Source: a virus (taxonomy: Duplodnaviria > Caudoviricetes). From it: DNA of 64,000 bases. The notes under the pieces are model-generated. The model ran no database searches and was not told the DNA's origin. It was given only the letters and a program-made list of their open reading frames with translations. Every line of letters starts with the position of its first letter. The stretch's first letter is position 1. Of this stretch, positions 13,757-54,401 are shown piece by piece. The stretch covers positions 2,317 to 66,316 of the IMG/VR virus record IMGVR_UViG_2700989045_000001; one strand, written 5' to 3'. A program made the translations under genes and the position numbers.

Positions 13757-16210
13757 ATGGCTATTCAGTCAATTGATGAATGGTTAGCTAACCAAGGAGG
13801 CCCTTCTGGGGCTTCCAAACAGCTCAGCACTAATCCCCTAGATACAGGGGCAGGGAAGCGACCATATATGGATATTGATAAATGGTTAGCTTCTAATGAT
13901 AAAGAACCTCAGATTTCCCAAGAGACCCTAGCGGCAACCTCCAAGGCACCCTCTGGGGAGCCGTCAGGGGAACCTAAAGGGACCGCAGGGAAGGAAGCTT
14001 CAGTGGCCCCTTCAGCATCTATTATGGCTGCTGGTGATGCTATTGAATCCTTAGTCCCTGATGTACAACGTAAACAGGAGATAGCACAACAGGCACGTGA
14101 AACTTTAGCTTCACAAGGAGTGAACTTAAGCCCTTACGTTACTGGGGGTTACCCAACACAGGAAATGGGAGCCGCCGCTGCCCGTCCAGACTACGCTGAG
14201 ACAACCAAGGAAGGTCAAGAGGCTGCCCAACAGTTCATCAAGGAAGAAGCTCTACCTGTTGTAGGAGCTACCGTCGGGGCTCTATTAGCTCCTGTTAGTG
14301 GGGGTTCATCTATTCTACTATCTTCTGCTCTTGTGGCGGGTAGTGCAGGTCTTGGAGGATTCACAGGGGAACTTATTGAACAGACAGGCCAATACACAGG
14401 AGTGTTAGACCCTCGTAAGAGTCAGGAAGCCCCTAAGGATGGTTGGGATATCTTGGAACGTGCTGCATGGCGTGGTGGGGAAGAGGCTGCTTGGTCATTA
14501 GTCCCTGACTTGTTTGTTAAAGGGGCCACACAGGGATTACGGAAACTCCTTACTCATAGTGCCAAACCTGCTGTTACAGTGGCAGGTGAAACAGTTGACA
14601 TGGGACGTCAGAGTATGGTCAACATTATGAAGGATTATGCTGAGAAGCATGGGGTTGACCAAGAGAAGATATTATTAACTTCAGATGTTGTTGAATCAGG
14701 ATTATTCAATGCGGCTGAGAATATTGCCTCTAACTCATACATTACAGGGAAAGTAGGGAAAGTACGGGCTGTTCAGGAAGAAGCCCTCAAGGAAGAAATT
14801 GTGGGAGTAGTGGAAGGCTACACTACACCTGCCTTGAACTACCTAAAGAACACGGATGATACCGCCATAGCAAACTTCGTGGGTTCCAATATGGATTCAA
14901 TGAATGACTTTGGTGTGGCTGGATTAGTTAATGTAGGTTTCAAGAAAGCACAGGATGCTCAGAAAGCTGTAGCAAGGAGCATTTATAAGTCTGTCGGGGA
15001 GCTCATGGAAGCCACGAAGATGCAGACTGTCTACAAGGAAGTAGAGCTACCTATCCTAGGCCCTGATGGACGCCCACTCACAACCATGCAGACTGTCACG
15101 GAAGAAACACCTGCATTTCCAGTGAGCCTAAGGGGAGTCCGAGAGTTAGCTGAGGAACGTATGGATATCTTGGCTCGCACTGGGGACCGCTTAGATAGTA
15201 ACACAGCGTCATTCCTTAACATGCCTATGTCTACTGATTACTCTGCTGCTGCTGAACGTTTAGTTGATATGAAAGCTGATAGCCGTTCTCTTGCTCGTTC
15301 TACTGCTGAAGGTTCTGCTAAACAGAAGATGTTGTTAGACCAAGCTATTGCTAAGTTAGAAGCGTCAATGGATGATGCTATGAACCAAGCGACTGCCTCT
15401 GGAATCACAGGGCCTGATGGTGTCCCTATTGCAGAACTGAAAGCCCAAGCTGATGCTATATGGAAAGAGCAAGTTGAAGACTTCCAGAACTCCTATGTGA
15501 TGAACATCATTAAGAAAACTCACCCTAAGAATGGTGCTCCTGAGAAATTAGGTCAACTATTCATTCAGAATGAGACAGCCGCTAAGAACATCATGAAGGT
15601 ACTCGATGATGCCAAAGGGAACCTGAAGGGTGCTGAACTGGAACAAGTAATACAAGCTGAGAATGCCATCAAGGGTTCAATTGTGGAGCAAGTCTTCATG
15701 CCTTTTGATAGTACCTCAGGTAAATACATTGCTCCTGATGTAACCGCTTTGACCACCAAGGAAGAACCTCTAAGACGTATCTTCGGGGATGAAGGTTATG
15801 ATGAGTTGCGGAAACTTGGGGCTGCCATTGAGAGACAATCGGGAGGTGCAACTAGCAACTACTTAGGCTTCGCTCAACGGGCACGTGAATCAGGGATGAT
15901 TATGACTACTATGAAAGGTATGGCTCGTGCAGACTTTGGTCCATTAATCCGTGATGGTGGTGCTACTGTGTTGTTTGCCCTAGGTGCAGGTAAGGTACTA
16001 ACAAGTCCTAAAATGCTCCGTCAGGTGAACATGATATTAGACCCTAAAGTAGACCCGGCTATCAAAACCAACATTGCCCAATGGCTCGTTCATCGAACAT
16101 ACGAGTACCAACAGGCAGTGGAAGCGTCTATGACACCAGACGAAAGAGAACGTGCTGAAGCTAAATTGGAAGACTCCAAGGAAGCCAGTATGATGCGTAA
16201 AGGGATGTAA
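13757..16210 (+). CDS. large internal virion (ejection) protein
   Basis: 817 aa, helical, Gly-rich hydrophobic hairpin. Confidence 0.6.
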   Translation: MAIQSIDEWLANQGGPSGASKQLSTNPLDTGAGKRPYMDIDKWLASNDKEPQISQETLAATSKAPSGEPSGEPKGTAGKEASVAPSASIMAAGDAIESLVPDVQRKQEIAQQARETLASQGVNLSPYVTGGYPTQEMGAAAARPDYAETTKEGQEAAQQFIKEEALPVVGATVGALLAPVSGGSSILLSSALVAGSAGLGGFTGELIEQTGQYTGVLDPRKSQEAPKDGWDILERAAWRGGEEAAWSLVPDLFVKGATQGLRKLLTHSAKPAVTVAGETVDMGRQSMVNIMKDYAEKHGVDQEKILLTSDVVESGLFNAAENIASNSYITGKVGKVRAVQEEALKEEIVGVVEGYTTPALNYLKNTDDTAIANFVGSNMDSMNDFGVAGLVNVGFKKAQDAQKAVARSIYKSVGELMEATKMQTVYKEVELPILGPDGRPLTTMQTVTEETPAFPVSLRGVRELAEERMDILARTGDRLDSNTASFLNMPMSTDYSAAAERLVDMKADSRSLARSTAEGSAKQKMLLDQAIAKLEASMDDAMNQATASGITGPDGVPIAELKAQADAIWKEQVEDFQNSYVMNIIKKTHPKNGAPEKLGQLFIQNETAAKNIMKVLDDAKGNLKGAELEQVIQAENAIKGSIVEQVFMPFDSTSGKYIAPDVTALTTKEEPLRRIFGDEGYDELRKLGAAIERQSGGATSNYLGFAQRARESGMIMTTMKGMARADFGPLIRDGGATVLFALGAGKVLTSPKMLRQVNMILDPKVDPAIKTNIAQWLVHRTYEYQQAVEASMTPDERERAEAKLEDSKEASMMRKGM

Positions 16211-16226
16211 TTGAATTCACAGGGAC

Positions 16227-16535
16227 GTGACTAATTTTAATAAAACTGAAGAGGTATTCAAAGTGGACCCATTGACTATAATTGAAATCATCGTGGGAGC
16301 TTTGAGCATAGCAGGAATTGTAGGTGGTATTCTAATGAAAGCTTTTGTCTCACCCATCAGGGAAGAGGTGAATGACTTGAAGGACGCTGACCAAGATAAA
16401 GAAACTCGGCTCCGTATAGTCGAAACCAAAACTACTGAACATGATATTCACATCAGCACTCTCGTTGCTACATCGGAACGCTTACTTGTTAAGATGGATG
16501 AGCTGATGGGACGTCTTGTTACATTAGTTAAATAA
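16227..16535 (+). CDS. holin-like membrane protein
   Basis: One TM segment plus coiled coil; last gene of the late operon; start uncertain (GTG 16227 or 16263). Confidence 0.5.
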   Translation: MTNFNKTEEVFKVDPLTIIEIIVGALSIAGIVGGILMKAFVSPIREEVNDLKDADQDKETRLRIVETKTTEHDIHISTLVATSERLLVKMDELMGRLVTLVK

Positions 16536-16536
16536 T

Positions 16537-16577
16537 AAAAGCCCTACTAGGATGATTCCTAATAGGGCTTCTTTTCT
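16537..16577. terminator. bidirectional terminator between convergent late and middle operons
   Basis: AAAAGCCCTACTAGGA...TCCTAATAGGGCTTCTTTT hairpin with A and T tails. Confidence 0.75.
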
Positions 16578-16578
16578 A

Positions 16579-16803
16579 TTACTCTGTACGGGCTACATAA
16601 TAGACACGATGATGCTCTACGTCCTTCGTGGCTACCAAGTGGTAACTACTCTGAAGCCTGATGACTGAGTCAGGTGCATTTAGTTCCTCATTGCTTGCCA
16701 ACGGGTAACCTATGGATACCAAGTGTTGACGGAGACGTTCTAAATGGCCTTTCTCACATCGTAATAGTTTTAATGGTACTGTGTATTTTACGGGTACACA
16801 CAT
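16579..16803 (-). CDS. hypothetical protein
   Basis: Tightly packed ORF in the minus-strand operon. Confidence 0.55.
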   Translation of the reverse strand: MCVPVKYTVPLKLLRCEKGHLERLRQHLVSIGYPLASNEELNAPDSVIRLQSSYHLVATKDVEHHRVYYVARTE

Positions 16804-31445: not shown

Positions 31446-32594
31446 TTAACTGAAGTAAGCTGTACGCAAACGTTCGGCTGCTTCACGACCTAGCTGTTTC
31501 ATAACTACTTTACGTTCTTTAGTGCTTATATGTGCCCATGCAGCAAAGAAAGCGTTAGGAGCGTCACCATGTGCCTCATCCGTGGCGTCCTCAAGAACCT
31601 TACCGCAAAGCTTCGTGAAATCCTTAGGTTCCCATGTGCCCTCTTTGGACATCACGGCTTCCATACGGGCCACGGTAATCATAGGAAGAATAGTATCAAA
31701 GACAACCTGCTGTTCAGGAGTGAGGATAACCTCAACCTTAGCCTTAGGTTTCTTCTCCCCTTTATTCTCCATGAACTTCACGCCCTTATGTTTGAACACC
31801 ATACGTTTACCGTTAGGTAGGTACACAGGGTTCACTGAGGAAATCACATGGCCTTCCCGGGTGTTATTGTGGATAGGATGTAATGCACAGTAACTCGAAT
31901 CCTCGTTGAGAATAGGGTGGCCATTCTCATTAAGTAGAGGGGTCATGTTAGGTACTGTGGTGATATCTTCCAAGTGCTCCCGGCTGAATTCCAAGCATTC
32001 CTCAAAGGTCCCGAAGGTAAGCACAGGGGCCACTGGGATACCATATGAGCCACACATAGTACCTAAGGTATAGAAGTCTTGAGGTACACCATCTACACAG
32101 ATTTCAAATGCAAAGAATGATTTCTGTTGAGAGTACCAGATTTTACCTTTACCAACCTGACCGTTACCTTCCTTCACCTTAGGAGCATTAGGATACTGAC
32201 CACCTGCCAATTCACCACGAATAGTGATTTCTTGGAAATCCCGAGGGATGTCTGGGCGGTTCGCTTGGTCACCTTTGGCTTCAATGTAGTCACAGGCTTT
32301 GTGCTGTTCCATGATAAGTTCTTTCATGTCTTTGAACATAGCTAGAATCTTAGGTGTTAGGAACTGAGCAACAAATCGGTAGCCATAGAAGTCTGCACCT
32401 TCACCAAGGACTTGATTACGGCTCGCATAGCGTACCGTCTGGCCATCAGTGGCTACTTCAAAGTTAGCACCGTGGATTTTCTCCGTCACTACAAAACGCT
32501 GTCCTTGAGTGAGGTCGATGTACTTCTGAAGTTCATCTTCATGGTTCTCACGGATTAATGTGAGAGAATTGTATTTTTCAAATGGTCTTAGCAT
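31446..32594 (-). CDS. RNA ligase 2 (Rnl2 family)
   Basis: F.KY.SL, EKIHGANF, GELAG, FFAFEI, EG.VI, K.K..KF.E motifs. Confidence 0.92.
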   Translation of the reverse strand: MLRPFEKYNSLTLIRENHEDELQKYIDLTQGQRFVVTEKIHGANFEVATDGQTVRYASRNQVLGEGADFYGYRFVAQFLTPKILAMFKDMKELIMEQHKACDYIEAKGDQANRPDIPRDFQEITIRGELAGGQYPNAPKVKEGNGQVGKGKIWYSQQKSFFAFEICVDGVPQDFYTLGTMCGSYGIPVAPVLTFGTFEECLEFSREHLEDITTVPNMTPLLNENGHPILNEDSSYCALHPIHNNTREGHVISSVNPVYLPNGKRMVFKHKGVKFMENKGEKKPKAKVEVILTPEQQVVFDTILPMITVARMEAVMSKEGTWEPKDFTKLCGKVLEDATDEAHGDAPNAFFAAWAHISTKERKVVMKQLGREAAERLRTAYFS

Positions 32595-39442: not shown

Positions 39443-39946
39443 TTAGAAATCTTCGTCATCATCATCATCTTCAAATTCATCCATAGGGTCTCCATTGGAG
39501 CCTTCTTCGATGATTTGAACAGCACGTAGATCGAACGCTGTGCCAGTTTTACCCATCATTTCCCAAGTACGAGCTTTGTAGCTGACTTTCACTCGGGAAC
39601 CACGAGGGATTTCTTTCTGACGCTCAACGATTTCACCGTTTTCGTCACGACCTTTTTCAATGTAAGGCGCTTTGTTGTTCGCTTCGGTTTTAACCACAAC
39701 TTTAATCGCATCGTTGATGTAATCTGAGCCGTCTTTGCGTTTACCGCCACCTTTAAGTTTTAGGTTGACTGTAAGCTGTTCTTCTCCGCGATAAACATTA
39801 CGTTTACACTTAAGACCTAGCTGCTCCGCATCTGCATACGTTGCTTCGTCCACACTCAGGGTTACATAATAGTTGCCCGGTGCTCCGAATTTTAAGTCTG
39901 GTTTTGCTGTAGAACTAAATAGAACTGTACCTTTTAATACTGCCAT
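39443..39946 (-). CDS. single-stranded DNA-binding protein (T7 gp2.5-like)
   Basis: I..GS.V.V, L.AVQI.E motifs and an acidic tail ending in Phe. Confidence 0.85.
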   Translation of the reverse strand: MAVLKGTVLFSSTAKPDLKFGAPGNYYVTLSVDEATYADAEQLGLKCKRNVYRGEEQLTVNLKLKGGGKRKDGSDYINDAIKVVVKTEANNKAPYIEKGRDENGEIVERQKEIPRGSRVKVSYKARTWEMMGKTGTAFDLRAVQIIEEGSNGDPMDEFEDDDDDEDF

Positions 39947-40600: not shown

Positions 40601-41185
40601 TTATGCAATCACGCCAATTTTCCAAGTTAGTTCATGCAGTTTACGAGGTGCAAGTTTCACTTCGTTACCTGTACGTTGACGGATATCAAGGTCAATCTCT
40701 TTGCCACGCATTTCGTTGTGAGCACGTAGGAGAGATTCCATGTTATTAGACATCACGATTTGCATTTTAAGGTCTTCTTGAGAACCTTCAAGTACATGTT
40801 CGCCAAAGTCTTTTACAAGGGCTTTGCTTGGTTCAAGACCTGCGTCTTGGTCGATTAGAACTACTTTTACGATAGAGCGAGTTGTGTTGGCCATGATGGC
40901 TGTTCCTTCTTGGTTTGAATTTGTTGGTTGTGATGAAGCGTAAGCTGCACCGATTGATGCGTGTTGGGCTGATGGGACTAATTGACAGTCACTTTCTTTC
41001 ACGTAATGCCAATCGGTTTCATCACGGTTGTAAACTTTAATTTCCCCGTCACCATCACGACGAGCTGTACGAACTTTAAGAGGAGTTGCAACTCCTTTTA
41101 CAATCACCATATCTCCGTCATTAAACTTAGACATACTGTTACCTGCTGTTGCTATGGGATTCCTAGTTGTACCGACAGGAATCAT
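40601..41185 (-). CDS. hypothetical protein
   Basis: 194-aa ORF downstream of a promoter; start uncertain. Confidence 0.6.
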   Translation of the reverse strand: MIPVGTTRNPIATAGNSMSKFNDGDMVIVKGVATPLKVRTARRDGDGEIKVYNRDETDWHYVKESDCQLVPSAQHASIGAAYASSQPTNSNQEGTAIMANTTRSIVKVVLIDQDAGLEPSKALVKDFGEHVLEGSQEDLKMQIVMSNNMESLLRAHNEMRGKEIDLDIRQRTGNEVKLAPRKLHELTWKIGVIA

Positions 41186-41203
41186 ATCGGGAGCTTTTAT
41201 ACT

Positions 41204-41220
41204 CTATAAGGTGTACCTTT
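41204..41220 (-). promoter_or_regulatory. phage RNAP promoter
   Basis: AAAGGTACACCTTATAG. Confidence 0.8.
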
Positions 41221-41414
41221 TAGTTGTTCGGATTACAATCACGAACCACATCGGCTGTACTGTGTAGGGCTTCACCTGCTACATCACCGACACTTTCGGT
41301 AACTTCTAGGATAGGTTCTGCCACAGTAGCAACTACACCTACTGCTGTGCCTACTAGGGCACCTGTGAGGTCTGCTACCCCACTTAATAATCCACCAAAC
41401 ATTAGTATGCCCAT
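41220..41414 (-). CDS. small Gly/Val-rich protein
   Basis: RBS GGAG. Confidence 0.5.
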   Translation of the reverse strand: MGILMFGGLLSGVADLTGALVGTAVGVVATVAEPILEVTESVGDVAGEALHSTADVVRDCNPNN

Positions 41415-41683
41415 ACTCCAATACGAGAGAAGAACATAGCGATTTTGGTGCGGCCATTCTCAATGTCTAGCATTTTAGAAGGGCGATGCATACGCTTAAC
41501 TGATGCTTTGACTGGTGCATTACCACGTTTGTTAGCTGACATACTAAGCTCCAATACTTGTAACAAGTTGAAATAAGAGACCACCTACATAAGCACATGC
41601 AGGTAGGCCGAATACGATTACTGCTGTTTTAAGCCACATTGAGGCTTCAGAGAAATCACTTTTAAGTTGCTTTAGGTATCCCA

Positions 41684-41917
41684 TTATAGAATACCACGGC
41701 TAAAGCGATGACCACCCGAGATTCCTCGGTGATTCGGCTTAGCTGACTTTAGGTTGTCAGGGCCACGACTAACATGAAACTCTAGGTGACCTAGGGCTTC
41801 ATTAAGTTCATCACGGTAAGCCTTAGCACCTTGCTTAGCTTCAAACCATATTACTTCAGGGCGTTTGCCTTGAGAGTTTACTACTTGAAATAAACGTTTC
41901 ATAGATTGTATCTCCAC
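41684..41917 (-). CDS. hypothetical basic protein
   Basis: Start likely MKRLF after GGAG. Confidence 0.55.
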   Translation of the reverse strand: MEIQSMKRLFQVVNSQGKRPEVIWFEAKQGAKAYRDELNEALGHLEFHVSRGPDNLKSAKPNHRGISGGHRFSRGIL

Positions 41918-41929
41918 GTTGTTAAGGAT

Positions 41930-41950
41930 AAATCAGACAGTGTCGGATTT
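41930..41950. repeat. 21-bp dispersed palindrome copy 12
   Basis: AAATCAGACAGTGTCGGATTT. Confidence 0.95.
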
Positions 41951-41953
41951 GTA

Positions 41954-43311
41954 AATTAGGTGGGCTTTTATTCTTGGCATACGCCTTGACAGAGCCCTTA
42001 CTGTACGCTCAGTATCGCATAGTGGATGTTGTGAAGTGCATTACTTCTCCCTATGCCGTAATAGGCGGCCTTTTGGTAACCCAGTAGGCCGATTTATCTT
42101 CCTCACCCTTCCTGACGATGCATAGTGTCAGAAGCTAAGCCCGAATTGCACGGTACATGGAAAGGAAGGTGAATTTGGGGCCTTTTGGTAACCCAGTAGG
42201 CCAATTGGGGGGTCCTTTGATTCCTGATGTGCCCTAAGTATGTCTAGGTATGCTCAGTCAGGGTTCCTCTCCCCTGATTTGCTAGGCTCCCTCGTAATGT
42301 CAGGGAATTTGCAGACCTAATTTGCAGGTGACTGTAGGAGTTACACCTACGTTCCCGAATGCCTTCGGTTTCCTTTGTACTTAGAAGAAGTCACCATAAT
42401 TTGAAGCCCTTGTGTGGAATCGAACCACCATCAATCAATATGACGAGCCTACTTTGGCGCCCCACTTCAACTCATCATGGAAGATTAATGTTCATCTATG
42501 CAGTCCATTACTGCCACCTTTCCCTAGGAGCTACCTAGGTACTATTGATGTGAAACTCGGGCATAATAAGAAACCATCCACGCCATGAGCCTTATCTCAA
42601 GCTTCTTCTCGGTTACCAATCGTTACTAAGGGATACTCAGTGTGGTAAGTACGTTTCTGAATGGATGGTGTAAATTAGTGACCGTTAACTTCCCCATATG
42701 CTACACACGGTTCAACATGCAGGAGGATATAAGAACCTGTTGGAATACCTTACCAACCTTAAAGCTTTGAATGAAATGTCATGACACCATTCAGGTATGC
42801 TTGGTTCTAATAATACGCCCCGAGGTACTATTGATGTGAAACTCGGGAATAATTTGGCCACCCTCGGTCTCGGATAGCCGGAGACATCGACCTACGCTTT
42901 TAACGTCAAGGGTGATAATTTGGTCAGCGTTTTGATTCCCCGAAGGGCGTTGATGGCAAGCAGGTCGCTGAGTCTGTACTGCTTACTGTACCTCCCGTAA
43001 CTCCCTGAGGAGCCCAGAGGCCATGCGCCTGCATAGTAGGGTTCTAACAGCGCATTGCTGACCTCTATGCCGTGATAAATTAGGTGCCCCTTTTATTTAT
43101 ACCAGAGGAGCTGTCTGGTTATCCTCTACACTACTTCAGCGGTTTGTTATCTACCTTGTAGGAAGTGTGCTTGTTATCGAATCTAAACGTTACGGTTTAT
43201 CGCATAGCAAGTACCTTTATTGAGGTTAATGGAATAGAGAAGCGCCCTGAAGATTCACAGACAACCAATAGGAGAAACAACCAAACCTATCTCCAAGACG
43301 CTTTTCTATTC
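41954..43311 (-). ncRNA. array of structured small RNAs with tRNA-like units
   Basis: ORF-free 1.35 kb downstream of two phage promoters; successive units closed by terminal helices and separated by AATT spacers; two T-arm-like elements; two duplicated hairpins. Confidence 0.65.
42323..42395 (-). ncRNA. tRNA-like RNA lacking an anticodon loop
   Basis: GGTGACT/AGTCACC acceptor stem, GTAGG-TGTAACT-CCTAC T arm, CCGAA-GGCA-TTCGG arm, 3' TGCA. Confidence 0.6.
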
Positions 43312-43327
43312 TATAAGGTGTACCTTT
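43311..43327 (-). promoter_or_regulatory. phage RNAP promoter
   Basis: AAAGGTACACCTTATAG. Confidence 0.8.
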
Positions 43328-43342
43328 ATATACCTTATGGAG

Positions 43343-43363
43343 AAATCAGACACTGTCGGATTT
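43343..43363. repeat. 21-bp dispersed palindrome copy 13
   Basis: AAATCAGACACTGTCGGATTT, between two promoters. Confidence 0.95.
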
Positions 43364-43379
43364 GACTTCGCTTCTTTCT

Positions 43380-43396
43380 CTATAAGGTGTACCTTT
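43380..43396 (-). promoter_or_regulatory. phage RNAP promoter
   Basis: AAAGGTACACCTTATAG. Confidence 0.8.
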
Positions 43397-43839
43397 TAAT
43401 TGTCACTGTAAAAGCAGTGTTCACCTATTTGACCTATGAACTCCATTTCCTTCCACCAATCTACCTTATCTCTCCAATCACATCTTAAATAGTTTGTGAC
43501 ATTAAAAGAGTATTGCTGGTCTTTATTAACCAGTAATGTATAAGCTAAATCATTAATAAGGAGGTATGTCTTTCGGTCCTTAATAGGAGCCTTACGTTCC
43601 AATGTCCAGCTATATTGCTTTCTTTGGTAAACCACTTTACATACAGTGTTAGGCCAGCGTGTATCATTTACTCTATTGAGTACTGATAACCCAACCATCA
43701 CTTGACCGAGGATAGGTTCACCTCGGGCTTCAAAGTATATATTGTCAGTTAAACATTGAAGGTCTTCATATGGTACTGAAGATACAGCAAAAGCCCCAAC
43801 GGGGAACATAAGGGATATCATAAGTAAAAATAAACGCAT
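43396..43839 (-). CDS. cell wall hydrolase, SleB / Hydrolase_2 family
   Basis: CL..NIYFEARGEP..GQ..V...VLNRV....WPNTVC.VVYQ..QYSW, IG.H.FY; signal peptide; start placed downstream of the promoter at 43851. Confidence 0.9.
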   Translation of the reverse strand: MRLFLLMISLMFPVGAFAVSSVPYEDLQCLTDNIYFEARGEPILGQVMVGLSVLNRVNDTRWPNTVCKVVYQRKQYSWTLERKAPIKDRKTYLLINDLAYTLLVNKDQQYSFNVTNYLRCDWRDKVDWWKEMEFIGQIGEHCFYSDN

Positions 43840-44422: not shown

Positions 44423-44439
44423 CTATAAGGTGTACCTTT
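44423..44439 (-). promoter_or_regulatory. phage RNAP promoter
   Basis: AAAGGTACACCTTATAG. Confidence 0.8.
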
Positions 44440-44924
44440 TAGAACCACTCGGGAACAGGTCTACGTGTCCAAGTGAAAGGGCTGCCATCATTCTGGACTC
44501 TCTTGTGGATTGAGTAGTACATCCTATACGCCTCAGGGCCGCTGTAGAGAGCCTTAAGGTAATCTGGCATAGCTAGACGGATAGGTGTCAAAGTCGTCCC
44601 TGTGAGCCTCCTAGGGGCCTTCCTGAGGACTTCTAGATGTAACCTTGTTTTCTCTGCTGTGGAGTCTGGGTATCTATACCAAAACTCATTGACTAAGGCC
44701 AATAAATGCTGATAGAGCCAGTCATAATTAGCCCTAGATTCACGAACCCAAATAGCACTTGGATGGTTGACATGAGTACGTTTGTAAGCCTTGCAGAATC
44801 CATCAAGTTCCCAATGGGCAGCCGATAGCAATTGCTTAGTCTCAACAATCATTTTAACCACGTGTTGGTCATTCATGAGCATAGCGCACATTGTCGGATT
44901 ATCGTGAAGGTAGAAGATGTTCAT
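44439..44924 (-). CDS. pyrimidine dimer DNA glycosylase / endonuclease V-like protein
   Basis: MNIFYL, D.HVVKM..E..QLLS, YK.TH.NHPS.IW.R.S..NY.WL family motifs. Confidence 0.75.
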   Translation of the reverse strand: MNIFYLHDNPTMCAMLMNDQHVVKMIVETKQLLSAAHWELDGFCKAYKRTHVNHPSAIWVRESRANYDWLYQHLLALVNEFWYRYPDSTAEKTRLHLEVLRKAPRRLTGTTLTPIRLAMPDYLKALYSGPEAYRMYYSIHKRVQNDGSPFTWTRRPVPEWF

Positions 44925-45323: not shown

Positions 45324-46358
45324 TTAAGAAAAGAAATATAGTGAATTAAGTACTTCACGGACGTCTAATGTACCTAATGGCGGTGGTGGTGTTAGGTTCA
45401 TCGCCTCCCCTCCATTGAGTTCCCAGATTTCCCGTAGGATGTCACGGTCTGCATACATGCCCACAAAGGATTCACGGATGCTATCAGCTAGGTCTGGTGT
45501 ATCGGCACATTGAGTAGCCATTGAGTCGTGGATATGGTGAAAATAAGTAGAGTCACAACGCAACGTGGAATCACATAGGTGAGTCGCATCATGAGTATGG
45601 ATGAAGTTCGGAGCGGCACCTGATTTCATCTTCTTCTCATTCAATCGTTTACCTGTTGTATTAGGTACACGGTAGAATAGTCGCATGACTAACTTACCAT
45701 TCTCCTTGATTACCACGGGTTTACTCTCTGTATTAGGGTTATCCTGATAGAAAGTAAAACCTAGGTGGTTAGTAACCTTGAAAGGAATGTCACGGGCTCC
45801 TAAGCTCTCAGCCCATGATTGAATCAGGTCCATGATGGCCACTGTTGATGGACATACAACACCCATCGCACCACGAGTTAAGCGCACCATTACTGTGACA
45901 GCCTTAGCTCTATGGTCTTTCCACACATCAGCACCGCTACGGTCAAAGTAAGGCTCTAGGGTTTTCTCTAGGATTTCCTCGGCTCTCTCGTCGATTCTCT
46001 CCTGAATACTATCTCGATTACCGTACTCTGTTGAACCGTAAAGATATGTCATTACGATTGACTTGGTATCCTTACGGTTAATACCTAGGGATTTCCACCA
46101 CTCTGCTACCTCAGTTAAGAGCTCATCATTAGCAATGCGCTCTAAGGTCTCTAGCAGATAGCCCACTGGGGAGCCCTTAGGAGCCTGTTTAAGCACCTCA
46201 AGAAGTACAGGGTCCCCGAATAAAGCTTGGGTCACAACTTCAGCCACAGCACCATATAAGTCACTTGGTTTAGCATTACCGTGAGCAAAAGCCATGATTG
46301 CTTCGTCTGTCATGCCTTGAGCTATAAAGATTTTTAGTTGGTCGTCTGTGAGAGTCAT
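45324..46358 (-). CDS. T7-type RNA polymerase, C-terminal part
   Basis: DLYGAVA, RKDTKSIVMTYLYGS (motif B), APNFIHTHDA, IHDS (motif C), S.YFFS C-terminus; own RBS AGGA. Confidence 0.93.
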   Translation of the reverse strand: MTLTDDQLKIFIAQGMTDEAIMAFAHGNAKPSDLYGAVAEVVTQALFGDPVLLEVLKQAPKGSPVGYLLETLERIANDELLTEVAEWWKSLGINRKDTKSIVMTYLYGSTEYGNRDSIQERIDERAEEILEKTLEPYFDRSGADVWKDHRAKAVTVMVRLTRGAMGVVCPSTVAIMDLIQSWAESLGARDIPFKVTNHLGFTFYQDNPNTESKPVVIKENGKLVMRLFYRVPNTTGKRLNEKKMKSGAAPNFIHTHDATHLCDSTLRCDSTYFHHIHDSMATQCADTPDLADSIRESFVGMYADRDILREIWELNGGEAMNLTPPPPLGTLDVREVLNSLYFFS

Positions 46359-46367
46359 GAGGAATCC

Positions 46368-46598
46368 TTAGTAGAAATTAACGGTTAGTTCTTGTTCTGC
46401 TGTATCAAGTGAGATAAGTAGGATATCTTCTCCTTTATGATGGACTTCATACACGTTGATTTGATTGCCTTCAACCTTACGCTCCAATTGAGCCTTAGGC
46501 ATTAGTGTATGTGCTATACGCACTGCACTGTTTAAGTCTTCCACAGTAGCATTACCGTAAATGATGTTGTGGTTTGTTTCTTCGATGATAATTGACAT
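46368..46598 (-). CDS. hypothetical protein between the RNAP halves
   Basis: 76-aa ORF with RBS-like GAGAG. Confidence 0.6.
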   Translation of the reverse strand: MSIIIEETNHNIIYGNATVEDLNSAVRIAHTLMPKAQLERKVEGNQINVYEVHHKGEDILLISLDTAEQELTVNFY

Positions 46599-46791: not shown

Positions 46792-48516
46792 TTAAAGTGT
46801 AGAGCGTAACTTAGCAATACGTGCTAGGAGCCCTTGAGTCCCATTAGGGGCCACATTTACACCATAGGCACCATGTAGGTCTCTTGACATTGCTGAATAG
46901 TGCTGAGCACCATTACAAGTCCCATCCATAGGGATTGGGATGTCGATAACTGCATCCATACCATTATCGTAGTATTTCTGCATCTGTTCACAGGCCGCAA
47001 TGAATAACCACGGGTCGTCTGTGTTCTTCCAGTCTTCCACGGTGTCCACAGGGTCCTTCGCAATGCTCTTAATGAACTCTGTGTTCTCTTCAGTCCACTT
47101 AATGCGGTCATTCCAAGACTCTTTATCTTTACCAAAGCAGTTGGCTGTGTGGACCTTAAGCCACTCTAGGGCTCTTTCAGGGTCTTTACTGGTACTCAAG
47201 GCTTTCCCTTCAGCAAACTTTAGTAAAGCTTTTTGTAGACAAACACCTTGCGTAGTCAATCCGGCACTTAATGGATAAACACGCATACGCCAATCTAGAT
47301 TATCAGGTATATAAATACGAGAATAATCACAGTAATCATTTGCTACCTCTAAAGCTGTTTTGATAACTCGGTTCTTAGATTTAACACTGGTGAGCTGTTT
47401 GCGCCAGTTAACATATTGAACCATTTTAAAGCGAGCCTCATCTAGCTCTACTTTAAGTTTATATTCCTTACTTGATATGCCAATCTTAGCCAGCATAGCA
47501 CGCACCCATGCACCAAACTTCTTACCGTGAATATCTCGGTTTTCCGGTGTTATCCCTAAGGCTTCACTGTTCTTATCAATGATAACTCTTAGGTCACTTG
47601 TACGTTCCTTGTGGGGACGTTGGGGAATATCGAGGAACCACTTATCAAAGAAGAGTTCATCATCAAACACTAGTTCATTAGCTGTGTCTAATACAAACTT
47701 ATTAACTTTGAATGGTGTGGCTTGAATCTTGTTCACCGCTTCATACACTCTAGGGATGGCGGCGGGGCCATGAGTTTTGTTAGTAGCCTTAGGCATGTTT
47801 CGGATAAAAGGTTGCTGCATATCTGCATCCCAGTATCCACCAGTATTAAGTCCAGTCCACGGACGAGGAGGAACAACCATAGGACGGAACACAGTAGCCA
47901 GCTCGGCCATGAGGTCTTCCTGCTCCTCTTCCCACTCATAGAACTTCTCAGTGGCTTCTATGACGTGTATTGTTTTATTGCCTTGTTGCCTCTTAGTGAT
48001 TCTAAAAGATGCATCACTTACCTCACACATCAAAGAGATTAGTTTGTAACCCACTCGGTACGCTTGGGGAACCGATAGCCCCTTTTCAATGTTCTCACAT
48101 AGCCTTACACACAGCGCTGCTAATTCCTTGCGGTCCGTTGTTTCCGCAATGATACATGTACGCATGGTCTGTAAAGCTAATTGAAATGGGTCATGACGTT
48201 TGAATACCTCTACAGCTATATGAGGTTTTTTTGCTGTGTAGCCATCAGCAAATTCCTGTATAGTACGGGAAAAAGGCTTCAATAAGGTCTTAATACGTTT
48301 CAAGGTAGTAGATGCTTCCATCCATTTCCCTGCCTCTTTTAGACCATCTTGACGCTCTTTGAATCGCTCAGTACCTAAGGCTTGCATATTACTTTCTATT
48401 TCAACGTTGGCCTTGATTAATTCAATATCACTAACATTAACATCCGTTAGTATATTAATCTGCTCCACGTTTAAGCCTTGTTTTATATATTTAGCTACTT
48501 CTAAGTATTGTAACAT
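46792..48516 (-). CDS. T7-type RNA polymerase, N-terminal part
   Basis: PMVVPPRPW...GGY, N.DWRMRVY, PMDGTCNGAQHYSAM.RD (motif A); ATG 48516 follows AGGAG. Confidence 0.93.
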   Translation of the reverse strand: MLQYLEVAKYIKQGLNVEQINILTDVNVSDIELIKANVEIESNMQALGTERFKERQDGLKEAGKWMEASTTLKRIKTLLKPFSRTIQEFADGYTAKKPHIAVEVFKRHDPFQLALQTMRTCIIAETTDRKELAALCVRLCENIEKGLSVPQAYRVGYKLISLMCEVSDASFRITKRQQGNKTIHVIEATEKFYEWEEEQEDLMAELATVFRPMVVPPRPWTGLNTGGYWDADMQQPFIRNMPKATNKTHGPAAIPRVYEAVNKIQATPFKVNKFVLDTANELVFDDELFFDKWFLDIPQRPHKERTSDLRVIIDKNSEALGITPENRDIHGKKFGAWVRAMLAKIGISSKEYKLKVELDEARFKMVQYVNWRKQLTSVKSKNRVIKTALEVANDYCDYSRIYIPDNLDWRMRVYPLSAGLTTQGVCLQKALLKFAEGKALSTSKDPERALEWLKVHTANCFGKDKESWNDRIKWTEENTEFIKSIAKDPVDTVEDWKNTDDPWLFIAACEQMQKYYDNGMDAVIDIPIPMDGTCNGAQHYSAMSRDLHGAYGVNVAPNGTQGLLARIAKLRSTL

Positions 48517-48529
48517 TCTTATTACTCCT

Positions 48530-48550
48530 AAATCCGACACTGTCTGATTT
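48530..48550. repeat. 21-bp dispersed palindrome copy 16
   Basis: AAATCCGACACTGTCTGATTT abutting the RNAP RBS. Confidence 0.95.
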
Positions 48551-53540: not shown

Positions 53541-53617
53541 GGATAAGAAGCATAAGTGGTATATGCGCTCGCCTGTTAAGCGAAAGATAGAGAGTTCGAA
53601 CCTCTCCTTGTCCGCCA
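53541..53617 (+). tRNA. tRNA-Asn(GTT)
   Basis: Cloverleaf, anticodon loop CTGTTAA, TTCGAA T loop, encoded CCA. Confidence 0.9.
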
Positions 53618-53622
53618 GTTTT

Positions 53623-53712
53623 AGAGAAGTGCCCGAGTGGTTTAAAGGGCCTCCCTGCTAAGGAGGTGGGCGTTAATCCGCTCCGTGGGTTCAAATCCCA
53701 CTTTCTCTGCCA
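53623..53712 (+). tRNA. tRNA-Ser(GCT)
   Basis: CCTCC-CTGCTAA-GGAGG arm, long variable arm, GCCA end. Confidence 0.93.
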
Positions 53713-54232
53713 GTTTCATGAAGTATCAAGTAGGCATTCCACTAGCGTTATGGTGGATACAAGAACGCCTGTCGTAAAAGCCGAAACTAACGCTCTAATT
53801 TATTGAATAAGTCCTCCTTTGGTTTTCTTGGTTTCACCATTGGAGGCACCTATTAACTCACACACCATAGGTAAAGAGGTGTGTGTAGTTCAATCCGGGT
53901 GCGAATAGATGATAGGTACACTCCTACTCTTATAAGCCTAGAGTTCCTTCGGGGCAAATGGCGAATGCAATAGGGTACTCCCCGGGACCGCCTGAACAAG
54001 CGGAATATAAATTTGGGTCAACTCCTGAGCAACGAGGATAAAAGGCTCACTTAATTCAATGATATGATAATTAATAGGCGATAGTGACCCACAAGCCCTT
54101 CTCATGCCGAGGAACTACGGGAAATCGACAGTGCGATAGAGTCACACATATCATTAATCCTTGGAAGTAGCTGGTTAAACTTCTCAAACTGTTAGCGTTT
54201 TGTGGTATCGCTTGGATAAACCACGTTAATTT
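53713..54232 (+). ncRNA. putative structured RNAs between tRNAs
   Basis: ORF-free 520 nt with closing helices and H-type pseudoknot patterns. Confidence 0.4.
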
Positions 54233-54318
54233 GGGTCGGTAGTCCCTTAAAGAGAGGAGGCGGTCTGTAAAACCGTTGGCTCATGTCCTGCTAGGAGCGT
54301 TACCTAGACGGCCCACCA
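54233..54318 (+). tRNA. tRNA-Tyr(GTA), non-canonical T loop
   Basis: GCGGT-CTGTAAA-ACCGT arm, CTAGG-AGCGTTA-CCTAG T arm, ACCA end. Confidence 0.75.
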
Positions 54319-54324
54319 AATTAC

Positions 54325-54401
54325 CGGGATGTAATGTCAATTGGTAGACGGCTCGCTTTGGAAGCGAGAGGTTGAAGGTTCGAGTCCTTCCATCCCGACC
54401 A
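54325..54401 (+). tRNA. tRNA-Pro(TGG)
   Basis: CGGGATG/CATCCCG stem, CTCGC-TTTGGAA-GCGAG arm, ACCA end. Confidence 0.93.

What the first reader, a model, noticed from the sequence alone, without database searches (positions are those of the whole stretch)
41954..43311. 1.35-kb array of small structured RNAs with tRNA-cluster-style punctuation
Seen: no credible ORF in an otherwise packed genome, directly downstream of two phage promoters and bracketed by palindromes at 41930 and 43343. On the minus strand, units are closed by terminal helices: GAATAGAAAAGCGTC/GGCGCTTCTCTATTC from the predicted +1 (43232-43311), GGTCAGC/GCTGACC (42922-43063), CACCCT/AGGGTG followed by GCCA (42855-42914), AGAACC/GGTTCT, ACCATCCA/TGGATGGT (42573-42669), TTGAAGT/GCTTCAA with a GTGG-TTCGATT-CCAC T arm (42401-42470), and GGTGACT/AGTCACC. 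About nine units end in N(C/G)(C/T)AAATT-like spacers, the same signature that flanks the true tRNA-Tyr. Inference: a polycistronic precursor cut into about ten stable ncRNAs, possibly decoys or antitoxin mimics against host defences.
Basis: partly seen in the sequence, partly recalled or inferred. Interest (0 to 1): 0.8.

Follow-up and report, generated by a model that had tools for sequence, protein, structure and literature searches.

The report
Phage array of tRNA-like structured RNAs
A 1.36-kb gene-free stretch of a T7-like vibriophage, set behind two phage promoters, looks like a string of about a dozen small folded RNAs, some shaped like tRNAs without an anticodon, that related phages swap as cassettes; what they do is unknown.

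Summary
Window 41953-43311 (- strand) has no credible ORF. It starts at the +1 of the second of two perfect phage-RNAP promoters. It is cut by nine C(A/T)AATT(T) spacers: 6 of the window's 13 minus-strand CAAATT lie in this 2% of it. Eight refined units all fold better than shuffles (z -1.3 to -4.4; 80 coding controls average -0.19). U7 folds into a cloverleaf with a 4-nt loop where the anticodon loop should be. U4 is an acceptor-type helix ending G-CCA. A 40-nt hairpin occurs twice with 4 compensatory pairs. Contigs of two public DNA runs hold related phages in which single units are kept (U6a 105/106), moved (U4 lies before U3, with one compensatory U-A to C-G change) or missing. The break points fall in the spacers. 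The same CCA + A/T spacer follows 15 of 26 tRNAs of this phage group. No unit passes as a tRNA or any Rfam family. Best reading: an accessory, cassette-built operon of stable tRNA-like RNAs, processed like a tRNA cluster. Expression, processing and function (decoy?) are not shown. It is a new variant of a known kind (T4 RNA C/D-type cluster RNAs).

The parts
43380..43396 (-). Phage-RNAP promoter P1 (AAAGGTACACCTTATAG), directly after the stop of the cell-wall hydrolase gene
   Evidence: perfect copy of the 14-mer found 10 times in the window; upstream ORF 43396-43872 matches Hydrolase_2.
43343..43363 (.). Palindrome AAATCNGACASTGTCNGATTT between P1 and P2
   Evidence: one of 22 intergenic copies.
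43311..43327 (-). Phage-RNAP promoter P2; predicted +1 G at 43311
43232..43311 (-). M0: 80-nt hairpin starting at +1 (15-bp closing helix)
   Evidence: MFE -28.3, z -4.41, 1 of 200 shuffles as good.
43077..43231 (-). U2: 155 nt, weakly structured; holds a degenerate promoter-like ATAAAGGTAC (43211-43220); ends CACC-UAAUUU
   Evidence: (z -0.48). In run X2 a 147-nt stretch that does not lay at 80% stands here.
42917..43076 (-). U3: 160 nt. 5' paralog hairpin at 43031-43070; alternative long-range closure GGUCAGC/GCUGACC; ends ACCA-AAUU
   Evidence: X2 contigs lay on 42993-43078 (4 other letters of 86) and 42944-43022 (8 other letters and 1 gap of 79).
42851..42916 (-). U4: 66-nt minihelix RNA. 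8-9-bp acceptor-type helix, a small hairpin, a 5-bp hairpin abutting the 3' strand, then G-CCA-AAUU
   Evidence: z -1.84; the X2 copy lies upstream of U3 and has one compensatory pair.
42672..42850 (-). U5: 179 nt; begins with repeat D1 (42820-42853); ends CAC-UAAUUU
   Evidence: z -0.31. Absent between U3 and U6a in X2 record 9 (116 letters instead of 274).
42564..42671 (-). U6a: 108 nt, 9-bp closing helix and three inner hairpins
   Evidence: z -1.78; 1 other letter in 106 in X2 record 9, while the neighbouring units differ.
42398..42563 (-). U6b: 166 nt; begins with repeat D1 (42534-42567); canonical T arm at 42414-42428; ends UUCA-AAUU
   Evidence: z -3.29; the only Rfam trace is a T-arm fragment. 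ARAGORN -ps80 gives a poor 'tRNA-Arg'.
42319..42397 (-). U7: cloverleaf RNA (7-bp acceptor, 4-bp D-like arm, 5-bp arm with 4-nt loop GGCA, 5-bp arm with 7-nt loop UGUAACU abutting the acceptor), then U-GCA-AAUU
   Evidence: z -2.63; the MFE itself is the cloverleaf; the only other loci with this geometry are tRNA-Asn and tRNA-Pro.
42277..42318 (-). Two short pieces: a 13-nt duplicate of the junction (42306-42318) and a 29-nt hairpin unit ending CAAAU (42277-42305)
   Evidence: An X1 contig breaks exactly at 42281.
42207..42276 (-). U9b: 70-nt unit
   Evidence: z -1.31. X1 record 6 lays on 42210-42281 (11 other letters of 72) and is joined to 41925 through 9 letters.
42172..42206 (-). D2 copy 1: hairpin GGCCU...AGGCC followed by CCA-AAUU
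   Evidence: 24-nt perfect repeat; z -1.44.
42064..42171 (-). U10a (42095-42171, long closing helix) plus D2 copy 2 (42060-42094), ending GCC-UAUU
   Evidence: (z -1.76).
41953..42063 (-). U10b: 111 nt. Paralog hairpin at 42017-42056 and two further hairpins; ends CACC-UAAUUU
   Evidence: (z -3.34). X1 record 4 lays on 41816-42161 (11 other letters and 3 gaps of 343).
41930..41950 (.). Palindrome of the 22-copy family. It is followed by the RBS and ATG (41901) of the next gene; there is no minus-strand terminator

Best explanation
The stretch is an accessory RNA operon of a T7-like podophage with a split single-subunit RNA polymerase (CHOED/MQM1 group). Inferred: the phage polymerase starts at the G at 43311 and transcribes about 1.36 kb that encodes no protein. 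The transcript is a chain of 12-13 self-contained folded modules of 13-180 nt. Modules are separated by short A/U spacers (CA-AAUU, C-UAAUUU, UUAUU). These are the same spacers that follow the encoded CCA of real tRNAs in this phage group. Inferred from established tRNA-operon processing in E. coli and T4: host RNase E cuts in the A/U spacers, 3' exonucleases trim back to the closing helix or the (N)CCA, and RNase P trims the 5' side of the units that present an acceptor/T-arm-like stack (U4, U7). Discrete stable small RNAs then accumulate. Several modules are tRNA-body mimics that cannot decode. U7 is a cloverleaf with a 4-nt loop in place of the anticodon loop. U4 is an acceptor helix stacked on a hairpin with G-CCA. 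U6b has a canonical T arm. The modules behave as cassettes: related phages keep, move or lack single units, with the break points in the spacers. Most likely role (inference, about 1 in 5): they bind or titrate host proteins that recognise the tRNA body or 3' end, for example tRNA-directed defence nucleases. That role is not shown.
For: No coding signal. Phage promoters at the 5' end, no sigma-70-like promoter and no minus-strand terminator inside. Strand-specific punctuation, 6 of 13 CAAATT and 3 of 10 C[AT]AATTT of the minus strand of 64 kb, and 0 CAAATT on the region's plus strand. Structure: 8 of 8 refined units have z <= -1.3 (mean -2.3), against 11% of 80 length-matched coding segments (mean -0.19, sd 1.01). 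Closing helices at the cuts: 3 of 9 units against 0.30 expected. U7 cloverleaf: of 31,962 79-nt windows on both strands, 62 gave any 3-arm cloverleaf. Read off the printed structures, only U7, tRNA-Asn and tRNA-Pro have a 7-8-bp closing helix abutted by a 5-bp arm with a 7-nt loop. Paralog hairpin (43031-43070 and 42017-42056): 27 of 28 cells paired, 4 of 14 pairs changed on both sides, slid controls 25-46% paired. Related phages in DNA runs X1 and X2: U6a has 1 other letter in 106, while coding flanks of the same contigs run at about 81-93%. The U4 copy lies before U3. In its 38 printed letters the 9 differences fall as follows: linker 4 of 6, 5-bp stem 2 of 10 (one U-A to C-G compensatory pair), loop 2 of 9, 3' acceptor strand 0 of 8, discriminator 1 of 1, CCAA 0 of 4. 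Contig joints fall at CCA|AATT (42920/42921), inside AATT (43078), at 42669, at 42564 and at CAAAT (42281). In the U3 hairpin 42956-42986, 2 listed stem changes keep the pairs (U.G to C-G, A-U to G.U) and 2 listed changes lie in its loop. Family signature: CCA followed by A0-2TT after 15 of 26 ARAGORN tRNAs (own 0 of 3, MQM1 6 of 8, phage 1233 9 of 15). One tRNA-like gene of phage 1233 ends CACC|TAATT, like U2 and U10b. The sister phages' tRNA clusters also hold non-tRNA modules.
Against: No unit reaches any tRNA or Rfam threshold, so 'tRNA-like' rests on shape. U2 and U5 (334 nt together) fold no better than shuffles (z -0.48 and -0.31). The two named relatives have no similar DNA and carry small ORFs at the syntenic place, so the array is not conserved in the group. 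The comparative evidence comes from contigs of two runs laid once. One search lists only part of the differences (108 not shown). Stretches under 80% identity do not lay, so some 'replaced' units may be diverged homologues. In the X2 U4 copy one inner pair of the hairpin extension (G-C in the window) is lost. One listed U3 change (43027) breaks a pair of the MFE model. The U3 MFE (-56.1) conflicts with the covariation-supported hairpin (-51.5 when enforced). The closing-helix thresholds were set after seeing the data. Only U4 has a clean N-CCA; the other ends read UGCA, UUCA, CACC-U and similar. There is no excess antisense complementarity to phage mRNAs (four 12-mers against 6.5 in shuffles). 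That removes one possible function without supporting the decoy idea.
Confidence: 0.58

Rival explanations
1. Decaying tRNA cluster. The array would be the wreck of a second tRNA gene cluster whose genes lost their anticodon loops and conserved nucleotides. It would still be transcribed but without function.
For: The sister phages carry 8 and 15 tRNAs, the window only 3. The array holds tRNA fragments: a canonical T arm at 42414-42428, the D-arm-like word TGCCCGAGT shared with the phage's tRNA-Ser, and CCA spacers. U2 and U5 are unstructured by z-score.
Against: U6a is kept at 105 of 106 in a relative whose coding flanks differ by 7-19%. There are compensatory changes in U4 and in the paralog hairpin. 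All 8 refined units fold better than shuffles. The array lies at a different place and on the other strand from the syntenic tRNA cluster. A compact lytic genome would not be expected to keep 2% of junk behind two perfect promoters (inference).
Confidence: 0.15
2. Cis-acting leader. The 1.36 kb would be a long structured 5' leader of the next operon (ATG at 41901). It would tune timing, stability or RNase access of that mRNA, or carry protein-binding sites, rather than yield free RNAs.
For: There is no terminator between the array and the next gene. The hairpin starting at +1 resembles stabilising 5' stem-loops. The next phage promoter lies only at 41217.
Against: A contig of X1 joins the unit at 42210-42281 almost directly to the gene start, without U10 or the palindrome, and X2 has a different unit set upstream of the same gene. 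So no fixed leader is needed. The CCA + A/U punctuation is that of tRNA clusters.
Confidence: 0.12
3. DNA-level element. It would be a primary replication origin of the T7 type (tandem phage promoters followed by a non-coding stretch) or a recombination hot spot.
For: Two tandem phage promoters sit just downstream of the RNA polymerase region, as in T7 (T7 layout recalled, not tested); they are followed by non-coding DNA. Module order differs between relatives.
Against: The region is not A+T-rich (GC 0.41-0.51 against about 0.43 for the window) and shows no GC-skew extremum. The skew follows gene orientation, turning near 16 kb and 50 kb. The strand-specific punctuation, fold z-scores and compensatory pairs point to RNA.
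Confidence: 0.05
4. Small-protein genes. The region would encode several unannotated peptides, or use a changed stop codon.
For: With TGA read as sense, one plus-strand frame stays open for 199 codons.
Against: That frame is antisense to all neighbouring genes, needs 7 TGA read-throughs and matches no PHROG. Minus-strand ORFs are 49 aa or shorter, and the only SD-like words precede TTG starts. There are no tblastx hits in the relatives. Of the 6 longest ORFs, 5 match no PHROG at E<=1, and the plus-strand 66-aa ORF gives only one weak match (E 0.031). The neighbouring genes read normally under table 11.
Confidence: 0.03

Closest known systems
T4 tRNA operon with the stable RNAs C and D (species 1 and 2)
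   Same: A lytic phage makes a polycistronic cluster transcript of small structured RNAs. Host enzymes, RNase P among them, cut it up. [quoted passage not shown] That RNA C and RNA D lie inside the tRNA cluster is recalled.
   Different: In T4, two such RNAs accompany eight canonical tRNAs, and transcription is by the host polymerase. Here 12-13 modules stand without a single canonical tRNA, behind T7-type phage promoters, 10 kb from the phage's own tRNA genes and on the other strand.
tRNA clusters of the sister phages Aeromonas phage MQM1 and Aeromonas phage 1233
   Same: They use the same spacer grammar, CCA then ATT/AATT: 6 of 8 and 9 of 15 tRNAs. Non-tRNA modules are embedded and conserved between the two phages, including a gene with a T arm and GCCA that ARAGORN does not call.
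   Different: Those clusters are mostly canonical tRNAs and are syntenic with the window's other RNA region (53541-54401). They have no sequence similarity to the array (best E 1.06). A model of the paralog hairpin finds nothing in them.
Phage tRNA genes used against tRNA-directed host defences (T5 tRNA-Tyr against Retron-Eco7/PtuAB; anticodon-loop variants; SegB-driven amplification against Septu)
   Same: These are accessory, modular tRNA-type genes of lytic phages whose content varies between relatives (abstract starts only: PMC11555353, PMC10264068, PMC13096335).
   Different: Those are working tRNAs that replace cleaved host tRNAs. The units here lack a usable anticodon loop, so they could act only as binders or decoys. 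That would be a different mechanism, and it is untested.
Type III antitoxin arrays (ToxI) and solitary CRISPR-repeat RNAs of phages
   Same: They are phage-borne non-coding RNA arrays proposed or shown to neutralise host defence (recalled).
   Different: Those consist of near-identical tandem repeats. Here TRF finds none, only two 2-copy repeats exist, and there is no Rfam match.

Membership tests
tRNA gene (Rfam RF00005 / ARAGORN) | Reaches the covariance-model gathering score or the ARAGORN default threshold | tested here: not met
   No RF00005 match in 41500-43800 even at E<=10. ARAGORN default finds only Asn, Ser and Pro at 53541-54401. The -ps80 calls in the array have many mismatches.
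tRNA gene (Rfam RF00005 / ARAGORN) | Cloverleaf with a 7-bp acceptor and a 5-bp T stem with 7-nt loop abutting it | tested here: met
   Met by U7 only. In one search this geometry is shared only with tRNA-Asn and tRNA-Pro. G53, U54, R57, A58 and C61 equivalents are present; positions 55-56 and the D-loop GG are absent (read from the sequence; tRNA numbering recalled).
tRNA gene (Rfam RF00005 / ARAGORN) | 5-bp anticodon stem with a 7-nt loop | tested here: not met
   In U7 the middle arm has a 4-nt loop, GGCA. U4 has only a 3-nt loop on a 5-bp stem.
tRNA gene (Rfam RF00005 / ARAGORN) | Discriminator plus CCA (encoded or addable) right after the acceptor helix | tested here: inconclusive
   U4 has G-CCA, kept as T-CCA in X2. 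U3 has ACCA, and D2 copy 1 has CCA without a discriminator. U7 has UGCA, U6b UUCA, and U2 and U10b CACC-U.
Phage tRNA-cluster operon with embedded stable RNAs (T4 RNA C/D type) | Several small structured RNAs in one ORF-free transcription unit | tested here: met
   (the transcription unit is inferred from the promoters).
Phage tRNA-cluster operon with embedded stable RNAs (T4 RNA C/D type) | Stands among canonical tRNA genes | tested here: not met
   There is no canonical tRNA in 41953-43311. The phage's tRNAs lie at 53541-54401 on the other strand.
Phage tRNA-cluster operon with embedded stable RNAs (T4 RNA C/D type) | Units separated by short A/U-rich spacers after the 3' end, as in the group's real tRNA clusters | tested here: met
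Phage tRNA-cluster operon with embedded stable RNAs (T4 RNA C/D type) | Cut by RNase P / RNase E into stable species | not testable with these tools
   No RNA data could be laid on the region.
Any described RNA family (Rfam 15: 6S, tmRNA, Y RNA, ROOL, GOLLD, introns, ribozymes, ToxI and others) | Match at the gathering score | tested here: not met
   the best hits in the region are chance-level microRNA and snoRNA models (19-24 bits against 50-90 needed).
Type III antitoxin / CRISPR-like repeat array | Tandem near-identical repeats | tested here: not met
   TRF gives 0 rows at score 30. The repeat finder gives only 2-copy families.
T7-type primary origin | Tandem phage promoters followed by an A+T-rich stretch, with a skew or initiation signal | tested here: not met
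   The promoters are present. GC is 0.41-0.51 and there is no skew extremum.

The most novel reading that the evidence does not exclude
The array is a new kind of RNA-based counter-defence: a phage-polymerase-driven, cassette-shuffled battery of anticodon-less tRNA mimics (cloverleaf, CCA minihelix, T-arm units). Once released by the host's own tRNA-processing enzymes, they would soak up tRNA-directed immune nucleases or other tRNA-body binders. Different phage lineages would carry different cassette sets, matched to the defences of their hosts.
Probability: 0.15. Interest if true: 0.85.

Novelty: new variant of a known kind. Interest (0 to 1): 0.58.

Why it matters
Phage clusters of tRNAs and odd 'stable RNAs' have been known since the 1970s, yet the non-tRNA members (T4 RNA C and D) still have no function. 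Phage tRNAs have only recently been tied to escape from tRNA-cutting defences. This locus is an extreme case. It is a whole operon of such RNAs without one working tRNA, in a small T7-like phage with simple promoters. The units have clean boundaries and are exchanged between relatives as cassettes. That makes it a compact system for asking what non-decoding tRNA-like RNAs do for a phage: delete single cassettes, map ends, pull down partners. [quoted passage not shown]

Tried and rejected
Expression: the look-up of sequencing runs gave 'no RNA holder listed', so nothing can be said about transcripts.

Searches for relatives, all without a usable hit:
- megablast and blastn of the region against INPHARED
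- RNAP C-half, alone and as a 3-sequence alignment, against IMG/VR and JGI metagenomes
- exact patterns from the region in IMG/VR. One search gave 12 single chance hits to the promoter word.
- one exact pattern in JGI metagenomes. It gave 34 loci; BLAST of 10 kb of the window against all pattern-scan loci (L027-L072) aligned only 2 of them, over 23 nt each.
- two exact patterns in GTDB genomes

The two named relatives (MQM1, phage 1233) have no similar DNA, no tblastx hit and no copy of the paralog hairpin (model R1).

Coding readings were rejected. An origin reading was rejected. Repeat-array readings were rejected.

Antisense regulation of the phage's own mRNAs: four 12-mer complements against 6.5 in shuffles. 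The 9-15-nt complementarity between the D2 loop and U6a (I2/I3) is what chance gives for 1.4 kb (my estimate: about 3 perfect 9-mers expected).

ARAGORN in mitochondrial mode and at -ps70 with introns calls many overlapping 'tRNAs' on both strands of both RNA regions. I treat these as noise.

The X2 joint 41954 to 43344 (side 21 nt) could be a variant without the whole array. It could equally be a cross-match of the two palindromes, so I did not use it.

Stretches of the array on which no contig of X1 or X2 lay carry no weight unless a contig joins across them.

Two paper searches were badly framed or empty for the purpose. One search did not force the phage name. In one search ('CHOED' + 'non-coding'; 25 papers, 10 listed), none of the listed papers is about the phage. 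The genome announcement of CHOED (PMC4110762, whole text read) reports 94 CDS and two tRNAs and says nothing about non-coding RNA. Supplements of the MQM1 paper (tRNA and CDS tables) could not be seen.
Full report
**Context**

The window is 64 kb of a 66,316-nt virus record (G000:C1:2317-66316). The record encodes a T7-type single-subunit RNA polymerase split into a 582-aa and a 344-aa protein. It also encodes a T7-type primase-helicase, DNA polymerase I, terminase and portal. By tblastn of the RNAP N-half, only two records in the phage collection exceed 50% identity: Aeromonas phages 1233 and MQM1. All the others are below 32%. Their annotations and the MQM1 paper (passages, PMC10410586) name Vibrio phage CHOED as the nearest kin, so I call this the CHOED/MQM1 group. 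Genes run on the + strand to about 16.2 kb, on the - strand from 17.7 to 50.8 kb, and on the + strand again from about 52.5 kb. The finding lies in the minus-strand block.

**Observation**

- The stretch has no credible ORF. It is one of five ORF-free gaps of 500 nt or more in the record.
- The 14-mer GGTACACCTTATAG occurs 10 times perfectly in the window, plus once with one mismatch. Every copy is oriented with the local genes and most sit right after a stop codon. Two copies lie at 43393 and 43324 (-), which puts the +1 G at 43311. Chance expects 0.0005 copies, so these are real signals. Calling them phage-RNAP promoters is an inference from the TATAG start and the encoded T7-type polymerase.
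- The palindromes at 41930 and 43343 belong to a 22-copy intergenic family, so they do not mark this region in particular.
- The spacer words are strongly and strand-specifically enriched. The region holds 6 of the 13 minus-strand CAAATT and 3 of the 10 minus-strand C[AT]AATTT of the window, and no CAAATT on its plus strand.

**Are the units structured?**

I cut the transcript at the spacers. Three of 9 units (U4, U6a, U7) have a helix of 7-9 bp that starts within 4 nt of the 5' cut and ends within 10 nt of the 3' cut. Randomly placed segments give 0.30 on average (P=0.0038), and 0 of 1349 rotations reach 3. The thresholds were chosen post hoc.

I then refined the boundaries using the repeats and the contig break points. 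Eight units of 150 nt or less gave z-scores of -4.41, -1.84, -1.78, -2.63, -1.31, -1.44, -1.76 and -3.34. Eighty length-matched coding segments from the same strand average -0.19 (sd 1.01), and only 11% reach -1.3. U2 and U5 are not better than shuffles.

- **U7**: its MFE is a cloverleaf. It has a 7-bp acceptor, 2 nt, a 4-bp arm with an 8-nt loop, a 5-bp arm with a 4-nt loop, 4 nt, and a 5-bp arm with a 7-nt loop abutting the acceptor. The tail is U-GCA-AAUU. In a scan of 31,962 79-nt windows on both strands, 62 windows gave some 3-arm cloverleaf. Only U7, tRNA-Asn and tRNA-Pro show the 7-8-bp closing helix abutted by a 5-bp arm with a 7-nt loop (read off the structures printed).
- **U4**: an 8-9-bp acceptor-type helix, a small hairpin, and a 5-bp hairpin stacked on the 3' strand, followed by G-CCA-AAUU.
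- **U6b**: ends with a canonical T arm (42414-42428), but that arm is separated from its 3' strand by 6 nt.
- **None is a tRNA by any caller**, and none matches any Rfam family.

**Covariation inside the genome**

The first 52 nt of U3 (43076-43025) and of U10b (42062-42011) align without gaps. They form the same three-tier hairpin with an AAUGC loop. In it, 27 of 28 cells pair, 4 of 14 pairs differ on both sides, and one cell is unpaired. With the 3' partners slid by 1-3 columns, only 25-46% pair and 0-1 pairs change on both sides. Two sequences give little statistical power (25 of 500 shuffles reach the observed values).

The energy model prefers that closure (-56.1 against -51.5 kcal/mol). 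I leave the conflict open. A covariance model of the hairpin finds only these two copies in the window plus both relatives, 194,619 nt in all.

**Related phages**

No relative with similar DNA turned up in INPHARED, IMG/VR, JGI metagenomes or GTDB genomes. The two named relatives have no similar DNA. Synteny anchors (44439-44924 and 39443-39946) show that they carry small ORFs where the array stands. The array is therefore an accessory locus in a variable region.

Two public DNA runs (coded X1 and X2) hold contigs of closer relatives.

*X2, record 10.* It runs from the upstream gene through both promoters and the +1 hairpin to 43224. Then come about 147 nt that do not lay at 80% identity. Next is a 29-nt piece that lays on the start of U4 (42920-42892), followed by 38 printed letters that align one to one with the rest of U4. 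The record then continues at 43078, the start of U3. So U4 lies upstream of U3 there. The 9 differences in the 38 letters fall as follows:

| Part of U4 | Differences |
|---|---|
| Linker | 4 of 6 |
| 5-bp stem | 2 of 10 (one U-A to C-G compensatory pair) |
| Loop | 2 of 9 (one loses an inner G-C pair of the window's fold) |
| 8-nt 3' acceptor strand | 0 of 8 |
| Discriminator | 1 of 1 (G to T) |
| CCAA | 0 of 4 |

*X2, record 9.* It goes from U3 (42944-43022) through 116 letters, instead of the window's 274, into U6a (42669-42564, 1 other letter in 106). Then follow about 440 unlike letters instead of 642, and then the downstream genes (41126-41542, 27 other letters and 1 gap in 417).

*X1.* One contig lays on U10 plus the gene start at about 96%. 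Another joins 42281-42210 through 9 letters to 41925, and so lacks U10, both D2 copies and the palindrome. Beyond 42281, right before the CAAAU spacer, that contig runs into a unit whose T arm is like that of U6b.

All these joints lie in or within 2 nt of the spacers. The listed changes in the U3 hairpin 42956-42986 keep its pairs (U.G to C-G, A-U to G.U) or lie in its loop. One listed change, at 43027, breaks a pair of the MFE model.

Limits of this evidence:
- The differences table is truncated (108 not shown).
- The contigs come from two runs only.
- Unlaid stretches may be diverged homologues rather than replacements.

**The spacer is the group's tRNA-cluster signature**

In MQM1 and phage 1233, CCA is followed by A0-2TT after 6 of 8 and 9 of 15 ARAGORN tRNAs. 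In the window itself the count is 0 of 3. The sub-threshold tRNA-Tyr-like gene at 54233-54318 has CCA-AAUU. One tRNA-like gene of phage 1233 ends CACC|TAATT, like U2 and U10b. The relatives' clusters also carry non-tRNA modules conserved between them.

**Mechanism**

Shown:
- an ORF-free stretch
- promoter words at its head, with no terminator or sigma-70-like promoter inside
- discrete folded modules
- tRNA-cluster spacers
- cassette-wise variation with structure-preserving changes

Inferred from the established processing of tRNA operons (RNase E cutting A/U-rich spacers after CCA; 3' exonucleases; RNase P recognising an acceptor/T stack with NCCA; recalled, with support in passages of PMC11143913): the phage polymerase makes one precursor, and host enzymes release stable small RNAs.

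The function is open. Antisense control of phage mRNAs is not supported. A role as non-decoding tRNA-body mimics that titrate host factors, such as tRNA-directed defence nucleases, fits three things: the anticodon-less cloverleaf, the cassette turnover, and the current literature on phage tRNAs against defences (abstract starts of PMC10264068, PMC11555353, PMC13096335). It remains a guess. The phage also encodes an Rnl2-type RNA ligase, which shows only that RNA repair matters to this group.

**Rivals**

- A decaying tRNA cluster explains the tRNA fragments and the unstructured U2 and U5. It does not explain the 105/106 conservation of U6a or the compensatory pairs.
- A cis-acting leader is hard to square with relatives that place different unit sets in front of the same gene.
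- An origin is not supported by composition or skew.
- Coding readings fail.

**Novelty**

Clusters of tRNAs with extra stable RNAs are a known kind (T4 RNA C and D, still of unknown function: passage of PMC9697503). What is new here:
- a whole operon of such RNAs without one canonical tRNA
- its position behind T7-type promoters in a 66-kb podophage
- an anticodon-less cloverleaf and a CCA minihelix among its units
- direct evidence that the units are exchanged as cassettes at the spacers

In what I saw of the literature nothing describes it: the CHOED genome announcement (whole text, PMC4110762) and the MQM1 paper (passages, PMC10410586), found by the search, do not mention it. The search listed nothing relevant among its 10 rows.

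Noticed in passing
window-wide, e.g. 977, 7763, 17431, 29149, 41930, 43343, 46768, 54806, 61311: A 21-nt palindrome, AAATCNGACASTGTCNGATTT, occurs 22 times (20 exact to the pattern). It nearly always lies between genes and often next to a promoter copy. It could be an operator for a dimeric protein, an RNase III-type processing hairpin or a polymerase pause site.
   Followed up: partly
52577, 52831, 52909 (+); 31200, 39164, 41217, 43324, 43393, 43864, 44436 (-): There are ten perfect copies of the promoter word (A)AAGGTACACCTTATAG, all co-oriented with the local genes. Three stand in tandem ahead of the small-terminase gene and the tRNA region. In run X2 both promoter copies upstream of the array differ from the window's in their upstream part (listed changes at 43321-43328 and 43391-43393). 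That would fit a relative whose polymerase has a shifted specificity.
   Followed up: partly
45324-46358 (-) and 46792-48540 (-): The T7-type RNA polymerase is split into 582-aa and 344-aa proteins, as in MQM1 and phage 1233. In the window the halves are 433 nt apart. The gap holds a 76-aa ORF with no PHROG match (46368-46598) and a palindrome copy (46768). In the relatives the gap is about 20 nt.
   Followed up: partly
53541-54401 (+): This is a second RNA region, syntenic with the relatives' tRNA clusters. It holds tRNA-Asn, tRNA-Ser, about 520 nt with no assignment (53713-54232, cut by AAUUU spacers; two pieces start AAUUUGGGUC), a sub-threshold tRNA-Tyr-like cloverleaf (54233-54318, anticodon GUA, odd T loop AGCGUUA, no RF00005 hit at E<=10), and tRNA-Pro.
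   Followed up: partly
L019 (MQM1) 820-1043, 1116-1205, 1281-1533; phage 1233 record 16114-16278 and 16437-16629: The relatives' tRNA clusters contain unannotated non-tRNA stretches that are conserved between the two phages. One is a unit with a canonical T arm ending GCCA-(G/A)TTT that ARAGORN does not call.
   Followed up: partly
31446-32594 (-): An Rnl2-type RNA ligase (Pfam RNA_ligase plus T4_Rnl2_C), conserved in both relatives at 42-45% identity.
   Followed up: no
43211-43220 (-): A degenerate copy of the first 10 nt of the promoter word (ATAAAGGTAC) lies inside U2. It may be the remnant of a third tandem promoter.
   Followed up: no
42073-42087, 42185-42199 and 42605-42619: The loop of the twice-repeated D2 hairpin is complementary to an inner stretch of U6a (13 of 15 positions, 9 in a row). 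This is about what chance gives in 1.4 kb.
   Followed up: no
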